Source of the DNA: the human T2T-CHM13v2.0 reference genome, Homo sapiens
Direction: 5' to 3' (one strand)
Length of the DNA stretch: 64,000 nt
Assembly (NCBI RefSeq): GCF_009914755.1
Contig: NC_060933.1
Shown: piece after piece, positions 43,730 to 48,265 of the stretch
Numbering within the stretch: position 1 is the stretch's first letter
Layout of the letters: the number at the start of each line of letters is the position of its first letter
Made by a program: the position numbers and the translations under genes
Notes under the pieces: model-generated
The model's database searches: none
What the model saw: only the letters and a program-made list of their open reading frames with translations
Told to the model about the DNA's origin: nothing

Positions 43730-43770
43730 AAAGAAAATGTGGTACATATACACAATAAAATACAACTCAG

Positions 43771-46700
43771 GGCTGCTCTGCCTATGGAGTAGCCATTCTT
43801 TTATTCCCTTACTTTCCTAATAAACTTGCTTTCACTTTACTCTATGGATTCACATCAAATTCTTTCTTGAGATCCAAGAATCTTCTCTAGGGGTCTGGAT
43901 CAGGACTCCTTTCTGGTAATATCCTCCTGGTGAACCATGGAGGGACGATATTGAGGAAACCCCCAACCCAAAAGGAAACAGACTGCAGCACCAAATGGCC
44001 AACTCTGGGTAAGTAGTGGGGTATCCGGGTAAAGGATGGGATTGGGTTAGAGGCCCAACTGAGGGGAGTTAGAGTGTCTCCTAAAAAAGAGTGGGTTAAA
44101 GGCCCCTCTTAATAAAAGGCAAGGACATCTGGTGGAACTTGGGTTCAAGGCCCAGCTTAGGATGGTTAGAATACTTCCTAAAATTTAGGGAGTTAGAGGC
44201 CCCACTCAGTAAAGTTCCTCTCAGCTATGAATGGATTTGGCATTATGGGGAGTTAACCACTATTCTCTTTGGATTAATCTGCCTTGTACTCTTCGCTGAC
44301 AGCTGTGGGTGACAGGATTAGGCATGTACAGGATCACTGGACATGGAGAGCCTTTTTTCTCCCCAAAAGGGGAAACTTGAAAGCTGGTGAGACTGTTGGA
44401 AAACCCCTTTGCAACTGACAAGTGACCGCCTGAACTTTTGATTGAGTGTCACTGCAATAAGTAGGTCTTTCTCTGGCCTCCCTGAGCACCTTGCCTTCCC
44501 CACCTTGCTGCAGGCAATGAATGCTTTTCTCCCTTTCCTATCCTCTGTGCCCTGAGACCACATGACAGCAGAGGTTGGATTAAAGATGACAGGGCCCATC
44601 TGAGGGCAAGTTTGAACCTTGCCAATTCCATATTGCATACTAAGCAGAGTGGCTACTGTAGCGAATCTGGTGTACTTTGTGCTGCAACTTTGTCTTTCTA
44701 CATTGCTCTGTCATAAAGAAGAATACCTTTATGGACAGAACACGGGCTTAGGATCCCATAAGCCCAGGTTCAAGCCAGCCTGGAAAACTGGTTAATTACA
44801 GACTTTGCTGCAAGTACCTGAAAAAAAAAAATGCTGAAGTTTCCTTCTCATTTTGTTCTATGTCTTTGGGAGCTTGACCTTGTAAGAATGGGTCAGTACT
44901 TTCTGTTGGTCTCTGCCATCCAGGGAACAGGAGTTTTGGGGTCCATGTCATAGTTTGCTCAAAAAATTATCTTAAGCCATTAAAAGCCTTTGCAAGCTCA
45001 AAACTGACTGCTCTAGCCTCCTTCAGGGAAGAGCAATAGAAACTGTCCAATGCTGTAGCTTAGTAGCTAAGGCTTTGTCTTTTCACAATGGTGGCACAGG
45101 TTGAGGGTTCAATTCCTGGCTTAGGGAATAAGTCCTTTCTGGTTTGATATCTGTAAGACCTTTATCATTTGTTGACTCCCTCCCTCTCCACGAACCATCT
45201 TGAATTTTCCTTTCTCTGAGCACCTTGGAGGTTACCTTTGGTAAAGTTCAAAACCCAGAAATACTGGTCATTTGGCCTGGCTAAAGTCAGATAATAAGAA
45301 ATTTAAAAGAACTGTTTTTTTTTAAGAGTGCTATGGTTAAAAGTTAGCTTAATTAAAAGCAGATATTCAAGCTCTAACAGCCTGGGATTCCCTGGGAAAA
45401 ACAGAGGAGGCACGACAGACCCTGTTTTGGGAAAAACCTCTGTTTTCCTCATGAAACCCTAGAAATTAGAAATAGCTAAGATTCCTCTCAAAATCTAAGG
45501 TTCTGTTCTGTTTTGCATTATGTTATCTGACGTTTTTGACTTTGGAAGGTATCAGAAATTACTTTGAATTATGAGAGAACTACTTAAGAAATGTATTTTT
45601 GGGCATGCTTAATGGCAGTTATAGTTTAATACTTGACTCTGCACTTTTGGATTAGAGAAGCATGCTCTTGGCCCCCTAGAAGGTATGAAAATGTCCTCAC
45701 ACCCCACTGAGAGATAAGACTCCCATGGGAGATGGGCTGGCTCCCTCTTTTTTTTGGGATCCAGGATCTGGTATAAAAATGGGACCCTTAATTTGGGGGA
45801 TCTATTTTGCATTCCAGCTATGCCCGCTTATTAGGCTGTAGAAACTGCACACTTCCCTGGCCCTGTTCCTCCAGGGCTCCACCCTGAAGCCAGTAATCCA
45901 ATTAAAAAACTGGGAAGTAAAAAATCTTACAACTACTAGATCTTCTGTGTATTTATATATGTTGTGTGTAGTGTAAAAAAAGCATCTATTGGCTTAAAAC
46001 TAATAAGTGCTTAAATCAAGTTATAAATTATGTCTTTTCTGACCTAATTAATCTTTTAGATATTAGGTCCCCTAAAGTCAAAAAATGACATATTTGGCTT
46101 ATTTGGTATGAAAATCATACAAGAAGCATTGCCAAATATGAGATGGTATTTGGCTTTCTTTGGGCCGTATTTGTATAAATATGTTACTGGTATGTGTTCT
46201 AAAATTATAAGAAACTCCTATTACTCTGAAATGACTTAGTCTATGTTATTAATAATTATAATTGATATGTAAAATTGTTGTATGGCACAGAAGTAAGCAA
46301 AATTAACTTGTCAATTGTGGCTTTAATAGTGGCTGTCCTAAGACTTTTTGGCATCCACAGACAATGTTGTCTTGTATTGATCCTCTTCAGAAGGTGGTTT
46401 TATAATCAACTCTAGAACTCTAACAGGTATTCTTGAATGCAGGTTTCTGATCTTTGGAGATTCTGACTTTAGAGGAAAAAGCATTCAGGACTCATGGAGA
46501 GCTGAAATGTTCGTGACTATTAAGCAAGACAGGTATTAACCACATGGACCTAACTAATAGAGGACAAAAATAATCTTTTTTGACTTTTTGCTTAAAATGT
46601 TGCTGATCCTTTGTTTAGTTTTTAAGAATCAAGGAAACTCTTCTTTTGAGCTATTAACAGCTTTTAATAATTAAGTAAAGTATACTCCTGTGAACAAAAT

Positions 46701-48235
46701 TTGGAGCATATTTGTTTCTACCTGATTTCTCCAGAATTTGGAAACTATTTGTAAGTATTCTTAACTTATGGCAATACAATTATTTGCATAAGTGCAATAA
46801 GAATGTTTTCTTTTGCATCATGACACAATTGGAAAAATTTGTTATTTTACCAAGGCTTTGACTAGAATGGTGTGCTTTCCTTTAAGGAATCAACGTTGAC
46901 TTGTAGAGCCAATAAAAGCCCCTTGAGAAAACTGGCCTTACACCTTGTCTACACAGTCCCTGTACATGGTTTCTGACCTGTGGTAAGTAAAGAATGTCAC
47001 TTTCTGATAGGCCAAGGAGCCCCAAGTTATCTTGGGACCTCAAGAGGAAAGGAATTTACTAAACTCACAGGTATTTGAGGATACAAACCCATGGCTGGGC
47101 TCAACTTTTTAAAAAAGTCTAACCTGAGATTCCTTCTATGAAAGAAAATCCCATTAAAGCCAATTAAGAAAGCCTGTGTGAAAAATAATTATTCTTGCTG
47201 CACTTTATACAAATAACTAGGCCAAGTATAATAAAGCAAAGCAGTCTTACCATGATTTATCTTTAGTAAAAATGAGGACTGGAGAGAGAACTATGGTACA
47301 CCTGTCTCATCAGTTGTTTTTGAGGTTTTTTCTGCTATTGAGACTGACTCTGCTTATTCCTGTGAATCAACCAGTCATCTCTGGCTGGTACTCAGAAGCA
47401 AGAGGGATGGATATCAACTTTTATTAGAACTCAGAGTTATGAATGGCCCTCGACATATCAATGCTTTCTGACTCAGCTCCTCTCTACCCTGAATACAAGA
47501 GACTCTAATAGGTAGGCAGGAATATCATTGCCCCTATTCAAGCTCAAGTTACAGAATATGGATCTTTGTCCCTCTACAATCCTTAGGATTAAGGGTTCCC
47601 TTGTAAAAGAGAGAGGGAAAATATGCCAGAGGCCACTCAACCAGGTCAACTCTGTCAGAGGCGTTCAAACCAGAGTGACTCCATGTTGCATAGGGGTTGG
47701 GTAAAATAAGGCTGAGGCTTACTGAGCTGCATTCTCAGGAGGTTAGGCATTCTAAGTCATAGGATGAGATAGGAGGTTGGCACAAGATACAGATCACAAA
47801 AACCTTGCAGGTTGCAGTAAAGAAGCTGGCCAAAACCCAACAAAACCAAGATGACAATGAAAGTGAACTCTGGTCATCCTCAGTGCTCATTATGATAATT
47901 ATTAATATAATGCATTATCATGCTAAAAAACAAAACACTCCCAGCAGCACCATGACAGTTTACAAATGACACGGCAATGTCAGGAAGTTACCTTACATGA
48001 TCTAAAAAAGGCAGGAAGTTCCAGGAATTGCCCACCACTTTCCTAGAAAACTCAAATAATCCACCCTTTGTTTAGCATATAATAAAGAAGTAACCATAAA
48101 AATAGCCAGCCAGCAGCCCTTGCGGCTGCTCTGCCTATGCAGCAGCCATTTCTTTTATTCCCTTGCTTTCCTAATTAATTTGCTTTCACTTAATTAAAAA
48201 AAACAAAAAAACAAAAAACAAAGAAAAAGAAAAAG
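43771..48235 (+). mobile_element. MER41-type ERV1 in processed (mRNA-like) form: R-U5 43771-43921, internal region 43922-47623, U3-R 47624-~48192, A-rich tail
   Basis: The R segment ggctgctctgcctatg...tgctttcactt occurs at both ends. PBS-like tgg at 43928, polypurine tract at ~47605-47621, A-rich tail at 48196-48235, TSD aaatacaac(t/c)cag at 43758-43770 and 48236-48248. Confidence 0.88.
48019..48048. promoter_or_regulatory. Tandem GAS (STAT-binding) motifs in the MER41 U3
   Basis: TTCCAGGAA at 48019-48027 and TTCCTAGAA at 48040-48048, both TTC-N3-GAA. Function untested. Confidence 0.55.
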
Positions 48236-48265
48236 AAATACAACCCAGCCAGTCAAAAAGAGAAA

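What the first reader, a model, noticed from the sequence alone, without database searches (positions are those of the whole stretch)
43758..48248. MER41 endogenous retrovirus apparently mobilised by L1 as a processed pseudogene (R-U5-int-U3-R-polyA)
Seen: the 5' LTR has no U3 and starts at ggctgctctgcc (43771). The 3' LTR has no U5 and stops about 14 nt after its poly(A)-signal position (aattaa at 48173-48178; intact AATAAA in the 5' copy at 43819-43824). A ~40-nt A-rich tail follows, and a 13-bp TSD aaatacaac(t/c)cag flanks the insert. Known: retroviral integrase leaves two complete LTRs and a 4-6-bp TSD, whereas mRNA structure, poly(A) and a long TSD mark L1 target-primed reverse transcription, as documented for HERV-W. 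Inference: a genomic RNA of a MER41-type element (no long ORF in the 3.7-kb internal region) was copied in trans by L1. I do not recall this route being described for MER41, and automated annotation would show only truncated LTR pieces.
Basis: partly seen in the sequence, partly recalled or inferred. Interest (0 to 1): 0.8.

Follow-up and report, generated by a model that had tools for sequence, protein, structure and literature searches.

The report
L1-copied MER41 retrovirus RNA fossil
This stretch is a dead copy of the RNA of an ancient MER41 retrovirus that was pasted into the genome by the L1 retrotransposon rather than by the virus itself, and hundreds of similar copies appear to exist, although the papers I could read treat this route as special to one other retrovirus family, HERV-W.

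Summary
Window 43771-48191 has the layout of a retroviral RNA, not a provirus: R-U5, 3.7-kb non-coding interior, U3-R. A 44-nt tail (36 A) follows, and a 13-bp target-site duplication (1 mismatch) flanks it. Paralogous L1 copies carry that 13-mer once, so it is a true duplication.

The copy starts 28 nt after a TATA-like box and ends 13 nt after the poly(A)-signal position. It lacks exactly one 246-nt GT..AG intron that 20 of 28 sister copies keep.

It is not a one-off:
- 13 of 29 other 5' ends start at the same base without U3.
- 11 of 29 other 3' ends stop at the same R end.
- Six of 11 such copies checked (this one included) have 13-17-bp duplications. Two are spliced from the leader donor and two are 5'-truncated.
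- Full LTRs of the family have 4-bp duplications (11 of 20).
- The R-end/poly(A) junction occurs 190 times in the genome at 1 mismatch or fewer (control 0).

The tandem STAT1 motifs 21 bp apart fit MER41B. Open papers call HERV-W the only ERV mobilised by L1, and none searched describes this for MER41. Verdict: new member of a known kind.

The parts
43758..43770 (+). 5' copy of the target-site duplication (AAATACAACTCAG), part of an old L1
   Evidence: Paralogous L1 copies carry the motif once.
43771..43837 (+). 5' R region. The copy begins here, at the inferred transcription start. AATAAA lies at 43819-43824.
   Evidence: Thirteen of 29 other 5' ends start within 0-3 nt of this base without U3.
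43838..43921 (+). U5, ending ..ctggtaata (GTAACA in most other copies)
43922..47652 (+). Internal region (MER41-int type), 3731 nt, with no ORF over 76 aa and no Pfam domain
   Evidence: Homologues lie beside the same LTR family at many loci.
44009..44014 (+). Leader splice donor ..CTGG|GTAAGT, unused in this copy but used in the spliced retrocopies L066, L070 and L075
47402..47419 (+). Exon-exon junction GAGGGATGG|ATATCAAC at 47410|47411. A 246-nt GT..AG intron present in other copies is precisely absent here.
   Evidence: Twenty of 28 copies keep the intron, and 19 of those 20 have AG at its end.
47653..48123 (+). U3 of the 3' LTR, starting TGTCAG. It holds tandem GAS motifs at 48019-48027 and 48040-48048, and a TATA-like ATAAAAAT at 48096-48103, 28 nt before R.
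   Evidence: PMC2897888 (passages).
48124..48191 (+). 3' R region, ending at the poly(A) site. The signal is mutated to aattaa at 48173-48178. No U5 follows.
   Evidence: Eleven of 29 other 3' ends stop here or 2 nt later.
48192..48235 (+). A-rich tail, 44 nt with 36 A
48236..48248 (+). 3' copy of the target-site duplication (AAATACAACCCAG)

Best explanation
Window 43771-48235 is a processed pseudogene of a MER41B-like endogenous retrovirus.

Inferred sequence of events:
1. A source provirus with complete LTRs was transcribed from its U3 promoter, starting at GGCTGCTC.
2. The RNA was cleaved and polyadenylated 13 nt after the AATAAA position in the 3' LTR.
3. A 246-nt intron near the 3' end of the interior had been removed. 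This happened either in that transcript or in an intron-less ancestor provirus.
4. L1 ORF2p copied the RNA in trans by target-primed reverse transcription, at an A-rich site inside an old L1 in an ERP44 intron.

Shown directly: the structure R-U5-interior-U3-R-tail, the 13-bp duplication, and the recurrence of the same end points elsewhere.

Inferred: the involvement of L1 proteins, the transcription start, and the poly(A) site.

The copy had no 5' promoter from birth and is a fossil. Its 3' U3 still carries the paired STAT1 (GAS) motifs. The locus belongs to a class of several hundred such MER41 copies, some full-length, some 5'-truncated and some spliced.
For: This locus:
- The 5' piece lacks 471 nt of U3 and the 3' piece lacks 84 nt of U5.
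- The tail is 36 A in 44 nt. The duplication is 12 of 13 identical, chance about 3e-5.
- Eight paralogous L1 copies show the duplicated motif once.
- A TATA-like box lies 28 nt before the start, and the end lies 13 nt after the signal position.
- An intron is precisely lost at 47410|47411.

Family:
- 13 of 29 other 5' ends start at R without U3, 15 of 29 have U3, and 1 has no LTR.
- 11 of 29 other 3' ends stop at the R end without U5, 9 of them with a clear A-rich tail. 13 of 29 run on into U5 and 5 are undecidable.
- Duplications of 13-17 bp were found in 6 of 11 R-type copies whose flanks I examined: this one, L054/L073, L065, L082, L070 and L066.
- Full LTRs of the same family have perfect 4-bp duplications in 11 of 20 evaluable copies, against 0.1 expected by chance.
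- L065 and L082 are 5'-truncated.
- L066 and L070 are spliced from the leader donor and have a tail and a duplication.
- Genome counts of the R-end/poly(A) junction are 190 at 1 mismatch or fewer, 386 at 2 or fewer, and 762 at 3 or fewer. Reversed-pattern controls gave 0, 1 and 2.
Against: - The site before the duplication reads AT/AAAA or TA/AAAT, not a perfect TT/AAAA.
- The tail is interrupted (2 T, 3 C, 3 G).
- No orthologous empty site from another primate could be examined.
- Among the other R-type copies, three gave no duplication (L062, L072, L075) and two gave only a weak one (L050/L074, L076).
- The intron-less form also occurs with a full 3' LTR (L064, L068). So the intron loss does not by itself prove that the L1 template was freshly spliced.
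- The loci sampled were the 40 best matches to this copy, so the fractions are biased towards its relatives.
- At 3 mismatches or fewer, 7 of 17 junction-pattern hits in the loci on hand were ordinary mutated R-U5 junctions. The count of 762 is therefore inflated.
Confidence: 0.93

Rival explanations
1. An ordinary integrase-made provirus that later lost U3 from its 5' LTR and U5 from its 3' LTR by two separate deletions.
For: Old proviruses are often damaged. Five of 29 3' ends in the sample are broken at assorted places.
Against: - Both break points sit exactly at the R boundaries and recur at 13 of 29 and 11 of 29 independent loci.
- An A-rich tail and a 13-bp duplication abut the break points.
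- Integrase copies of this family have 4-bp duplications.
- The flanking L1 is continuous across the insert apart from the duplication.
Confidence: 0.02
2. A cDNA of the polyadenylated viral RNA was made by another reverse transcriptase (the virus's own or another element's) and captured at a chromosome break, without L1 endonuclease.
For: The nick-site motif is imperfect. Three of 11 R-type copies examined gave no duplication.
Against: - Tail plus a 13-17-bp duplication in 6 of 11 copies, 5' truncation, and purine-rich starts of all six duplications are the standard L1 signature.
- Break capture gives no regular duplication.
Confidence: 0.04
3. The locus is a DNA-level (segmental) duplicate of another processed copy, not an insertion event of its own.
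For: One junction variant is present six times in a duplicated part of contig C1.
Against: - The nearest genomic relatives of this copy are only 84% identical.
- Its flanks are a unique L1 and Alu context with its own duplication.
Confidence: 0.01

Closest known systems
HERV-W (HERV17/LTR17) processed pseudogenes made by L1
   Same: The same anatomy as summarised in PMC5016936 (passages): a 5' LTR reduced to R-U5, a 3' LTR reduced to U3-R, a poly(A) tail, and a variable duplication of 5-15 bp at TT/AAAA-like sites. The reviews place MER41 in the same HERVW9 supergroup (PMC4724089 and PMC5753468, passages).
   Different: - A different ERV family: the LTR carries the MER41B/E hallmark of tandem GAS motifs 21 bp apart.
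- The interior has no recognisable protein domain.
- The accessible papers state that HERV-W is the only HERV group mobilised by L1 (PMC5537654, abstract and passages).
- The junction counts here (190 strict) are of the order of, or above, the 135 HERV-W pseudogenes quoted there.
Ordinary processed pseudogenes of cellular mRNAs
   Same: Intron loss, poly(A) tail, long duplication, 5' truncation and lack of a promoter.
   Different: The template is a retroviral genomic or subgenomic RNA. The copy therefore carries a complete U3 enhancer/promoter at its 3' end.
Integrase-made MER41 proviruses and solo LTRs
   Same: The same LTR and internal sequences. In the leader tree, R-type and full-LTR copies are intermixed.
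   Different: Those have complete TG..CA LTRs and 4-bp duplications (11 of 20). This copy has neither.
SVA and other RNAs mobilised by L1 in trans
   Same: Dependence on L1 proteins, with tail and duplication.
   Different: SVA is an active composite family that is repeatedly copied from its own copies. The R-type MER41 copies lack a 5' promoter and show a star-like tree, as expected if each was copied from provirus transcripts (inference).

Membership tests
L1-made processed pseudogene of an ERV (criteria quoted in PMC5016936 from Pavlicek 2002) | 5' LTR reduced to R-U5 | tested here: met
   The copy starts at 43771. The 471 nt of U3 seen in the 3' LTR and in 29 of 29 other LTRs are absent.
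L1-made processed pseudogene of an ERV (criteria quoted in PMC5016936 from Pavlicek 2002) | 3' LTR reduced to U3-R | tested here: met
   Homology ends at 48191. The 84 nt of U5 are absent.
L1-made processed pseudogene of an ERV (criteria quoted in PMC5016936 from Pavlicek 2002) | Poly(A) tail directly after R | tested here: met
   48192-48235 has 36 A in 44 nt.
L1-made processed pseudogene of an ERV (criteria quoted in PMC5016936 from Pavlicek 2002) | Variable-length duplication of about 5-15 bp | tested here: met
   13 bp with 12 identical. Shown to be a duplication by paralogous L1 copies.
L1-made processed pseudogene of an ERV (criteria quoted in PMC5016936 from Pavlicek 2002) | TT/AAAA-type insertion motif | tested here: inconclusive
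   Here the site reads AT/AAAA or TA/AAAT, depending on register. Across six copies, T precedes the duplication in four and purines start it in all six. That is too few sites for a logo.
MER41 (MER41B-like LTR with MER41-int) | Two GAS (STAT1) motifs in tandem, 21 bp centre to centre, as in the MER41B and MER41E consensus | tested here: met
   TTCCAGGAA at 48019 and TTCCTAGAA at 48040; PMC2897888, passages.
MER41 (MER41B-like LTR with MER41-int) | Alignment to the Repbase/Dfam MER41A-G and MER41-int consensus sequences | not testable with these tools
   No repeat library was on hand. The LTR size classes of about 550 and 625 nt fit my recollection of MER41A and MER41B lengths, which is recall only.
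MER41 (MER41B-like LTR with MER41-int) | The interior is the sequence found between LTRs of this family elsewhere | tested here: met
   The 5', middle and 3' parts of the interior match many loci that carry the same LTRs.
Integrase-made provirus | Two complete LTRs | tested here: not met
Integrase-made provirus | Short fixed duplication (4 bp in this family) | tested here: not met
   13 bp here, against 4 bp in 11 of 20 full LTRs.
HERV-W (HERV17/LTR17) | Sequence identity to LTR17/HERV17 | not tested
   No HERV-W reference sequence was available from any tool. The LTR carries the MER41B/E hallmark instead.

The most novel reading that the evidence does not exclude
RNAs of MER41B-type proviruses, genomic and spliced, were a major template for L1 in early anthropoid primates. 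They left several hundred copies, as many as or more than HERV-W. If so, HERV-W is not unique. An appreciable share of the roughly 7,200 annotated 'MER41' pieces, including pieces that carry the interferon-responsive paired STAT1 motifs, were spread by L1 rather than by retroviral integration. The retrocopies also preserve the transcription start, poly(A) site and splice sites of an extinct virus. None of this appears in the papers I could search.
Probability: 0.5. Interest if true: 0.7.

Novelty: new member of a known kind. Interest (0 to 1): 0.6.

Why it matters
- The accessible reviews describe L1 mobilisation as a property unique to HERV-W among human ERVs, and wonder why (PMC5537654, PMC6995185). 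A second, related family with hundreds of such copies changes that question into one about the HERVW9 supergroup or about the time window of L1 activity.
- Repeat annotation shows these copies only as truncated LTR pieces. Counts of MER41 'integrations', age estimates from LTR pairs, and models of how MER41 STAT1 enhancers were dispersed would all need this second route. Five of 10 other R-type 3' ends still hold the paired GAS motifs.
- The retrocopies act as a natural cDNA library. From sequence alone they give a transcription start, two poly(A) cleavage points, one leader donor and three acceptors for a virus extinct for tens of millions of years.

For the locus itself the practical meaning is small. 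It is a promoterless fossil lying antisense in an ERP44 intron.

Tried and rejected
- Protein content: the three sense frames of 43913-47652, read with X at stops, gave 0 Pfam families at E up to 0.1.
Pairing of ends is therefore limited to copies already on hand. The share of 5'-truncated copies among the junction hits could not be measured.
- Splice-junction counts: 30-mers across two exon junctions, taken from single copies, found only their own locus at 3 mismatches or fewer. Copies differ by about 20%, so this is uninformative, not negative.
- The junction count at 3 mismatches or fewer (762) was rejected as a headline number, after 7 of 17 on-hand hits proved to be mutated ordinary junctions.
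- Clustering: R-type and full-LTR copies are not separated in the leader tree as a whole (8 changes; 94 of 500 shuffles as low). R-type copies are, however, 13 of 19 outside against 1 of 11 inside the one well-supported short-LTR clade (Fisher p = 0.0024).
- Papers not held: Pavlicek 2002 and Chuong 2016.
- The tRNA type of the primer-binding site was not determined.
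Full report
**What is there**

The window is human chr9 (hub note), and the finding lies antisense in an ERP44 intron. Reading the two ends and aligning them shows a 67/68-nt stretch shared by both ends: 43771-43837 and 48124-48191, 91% identical.

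At the 3' end this stretch is preceded by 471 nt that belong to the same LTR. The LTR start at 47653 (TGTCAG) was fixed by comparison with 29 other genomic copies. At the 5' end it is preceded by unrelated L1 sequence. Conversely the 5' copy continues for 84 nt (U5, to 43921), and these are missing at the 3' end. There, homology to all other LTRs stops at 48191.

The layout is therefore R-U5-interior-U3-R, which is that of the viral RNA.

- After 48191 come 44 nt with 36 A.
- The 13-mer AAATACAAC(T/C)CAG stands directly before 43771 and directly after the tail. The chance is about 3e-5 even allowing 20 registers.
- The interior (43922-47652) has no sense frame longer than 76 aa.
- With X at stops it has no Pfam match in three frames.

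**Is the 13-mer a duplication?**

No other primate genome was available, so I used paralogues. The insert sits in an old L1. Eight other L1 copies in the window and in fetched loci cover the same L1 segment. In these the corresponding motif occurs once, directly followed by the sequence that here follows the 3' copy. The insert therefore split a continuous L1 and doubled 13 bp.

**Transcript landmarks**

- In the intact U3 a TATA-like ATAAAAAT starts 28 nt before the first base of R.
- The 5' R holds AATAAA at 43819-43824.
- R ends 13 nt after that position.

Start and end of the copy thus lie where RNA polymerase II would start and where cleavage would occur. This is inference from standard spacing rules.

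**Family name**

No repeat library was on hand. The U3 carries TTCCAGGAA at 48019 and TTCCTAGAA at 48040, 21 bp apart. Schmid and Bucher (PMC2897888, passages read) report exactly this tandem spacing for the MER41B and MER41E consensus, a single or distant site for MER41A, and 7,197 MER41 annotations that are primate-specific.

Full LTRs of this family fall in two size classes, about 550 and about 625 nt. This copy belongs to the long class. Reviews place MER41-int in the HERVW9 supergroup with HERV-W (PMC4724089 and PMC5753468, passages).

**It is not unique**

The own-genome search returns the 40 best matches per query. The samples are therefore biased towards relatives of this copy.

| Sample | n | R-type (RNA-shaped end) | Full LTR | Other |
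|---|---|---|---|---|
| Other copies of the 5' leader, L032-L060 | 29 | 13 begin within 0-3 nt of GGCTGCTCTGCC, no U3 upstream | 15 have U3 | 1 has no LTR |
| Other copies of the 3' interior, L062-L090 | 29 | 11 stop at ..CACTT or ..CACTTTA without U5 | 13 continue into U5 | 5 broken or cut by the locus end |

Of the 11 R-type 3' ends, 9 have a clear A-rich tail; L062 and L085 are weak.

Two elements are seen at both ends with both truncations:
- L050/L074, about 5.5 kb;
- L054/L073, about 5.6 kb.

A third, L048, is matched by a junction hit 5.2 kb downstream.

**Duplications**

I examined 11 R-type copies whose flanks were on hand, this one included.

| Copy | Duplication |
|---|---|
| This copy | 13 bp |
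| L054/L073 | 15 bp |
| L065 | 16 bp |
| L082 | 13 bp |
| L070 | 14 bp |
| L066 | 17 bp |
| L050/L074 | weak |
| L076 | weak |
| L062, L072, L075 | none found |

L065 (1.5 kb) and L082 (1.8 kb) are 5'-truncated, as L1 products often are.

For contrast I measured full LTRs of the same family. Nine of the 29 were dropped because an LTR end was not reached, the terminal motif was not found, or two LTRs were hit. Of the remaining 20, 11 have a perfect 4-bp duplication, against 0.1 expected by chance.

**Splicing**

Three short copies join the leader directly to downstream exons.

- The donor is ..CTGG|GTAAGT, at 44008|44009 in this copy and also present in L050.
- L075 joins it exactly to the exon that starts ATATCA after a pyrimidine tract and AG.
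- L070 joins it exactly to an acceptor before window 46627. A 123-nt exon follows, then the same ATATCA exon. That second junction is 4 nt off the expected one.
- L066 joins it to an acceptor before about 46822.
- L066 and L070 also have the R start, a tail and a duplication. L075 has no tail.

The ATATCA acceptor is preceded by AG in 19 of 20 copies that keep the upstream intron (28 of 30 loci could be scored).

This window's copy, like L062 and L066, reads GAGGGATGG|AT(A/C)TCA. In L074 the donor exon is followed by GTAATG and 246 nt ending in AG. So this copy lacks exactly one GT..AG intron.

Six of 28 scored copies lack it. Two of them (L064, L068) have a full 3' LTR. The intron-less form therefore also existed as a provirus, and the splicing need not have happened in the very transcript that L1 copied.

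**How many?**

| Pattern | Mismatches allowed | Genome hits | Reversed-pattern control |
|---|---|---|---|
| Last 20 nt of R plus a run of A | 1 or fewer | 190 (65 exact) | 0 |
| Same | 2 or fewer | 386 | 1 |
| Same | 3 or fewer | 762 | 2 |
| Ordinary R-U5 junction | 1 or fewer | 964 | 0 |
| Same | 3 or fewer | 2167 | 3 |

I checked the poly(A)-junction pattern against the loci on hand:
- at 1 mismatch or fewer, 5 hits, all true;
- at 2 or fewer, 9 hits, 8 true;
- at 3 or fewer, 17 hits, 10 true.

The strict pattern finds 5 of the 12 true junctions known to me, and it misses this window's own. A rough correction gives about 450-500 junctions. This rests on 12 calibration cases and includes segmental duplicates: one variant occurs six times on contig C1.

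**Relationships and age**

A maximum-likelihood tree of the 488-nt leader of 30 copies is star-like, with median terminal branches of 0.097 and 0.12 for this copy. R-type and full-LTR copies are intermixed overall. R-type copies are 13 of 19 outside and 1 of 11 inside the one strongly supported clade, which goes with the short LTR class (Fisher p = 0.0024).

With commonly used primate neutral rates of 0.2-0.45% per million years (the upper figure is quoted in PMC6995185; the lower is recalled), a branch of 0.1 means roughly 25-50 million years. This is inference.

**Literature**

- Five full-text searches combined MER41 or ERV with terms for processed pseudogenes and L1 mobilisation. They found no paper describing MER41 processed pseudogenes.
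- Fourteen papers hold both 'MER41' and 'processed pseudogene'. I read passages in four. In each the two terms are unconnected.
- Grandi and Tramontano (PMC5537654, abstract and passages) call HERV-W the sole HERV group mobilised by L1.
- Grandi et al. 2020 (PMC6995185, passages) found none for the W-like ERVs of New World monkeys.
- Vargiu et al. (PMC4724089, passages) did not separate pseudogenes from proviruses.
- Pavlicek 2002 was not held and I did not seek Costas 2002. Subscription journals and Repbase notes are outside the library, so prior description cannot be excluded.

**Verdict**

The locus is one member of a large and apparently undescribed class. It is a new member of a known kind: L1-made ERV pseudogenes, known so far for HERV-W.

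Noticed in passing
window 43438-43729 (flanked by 43425-43437 and 43730-43742): An Alu with its own 13-bp duplication (aaagaaaatgtgg) sits in the same old L1, 28 nt upstream of the ERV copy.
   Followed up: partly
L066 (C6:87.0 Mb), L070 (C6:112.13 Mb), L075 (C15:56.15 Mb): Retrocopies of spliced MER41 RNAs of 2.1, 1.4 and 1.0 kb. They use one leader donor and three different acceptors. L066 and L070 have a tail and a 14-17-bp duplication. L075 has neither.
   Followed up: yes
window 44042-44213, and the same place in many loci: The leader holds a diverged tandem repeat of about 97 nt (44042-44116 against 44139-44213, 73% identical; sub-units of about 48 nt). It is also seen as cross-matches in other copies.
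   Followed up: no
contig C1, 120.3-148.7 Mb (six places listed): One R-end/poly(A) junction variant (TAATAAGC..) occurs six times. This is most likely one insertion multiplied by later segmental duplication.
   Followed up: no
window about 48290-48340: Downstream of the insert the host L1 sequence changes to a different part of L1. This suggests a rearranged or second L1. I judged it by eye only.
   Followed up: no
L064 (C17:53.85 Mb), L068 (C23:37.29 Mb): Copies with a full 3' LTR that nevertheless lack the 246-nt intron. An intron-less variant apparently also spread as a provirus.
   Followed up: partly
L043, L070, L067: Later insertions of about 300 nt interrupt the R region of these copies. 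In L070 a 12-nt stretch of R is doubled around the insertion.
   Followed up: no
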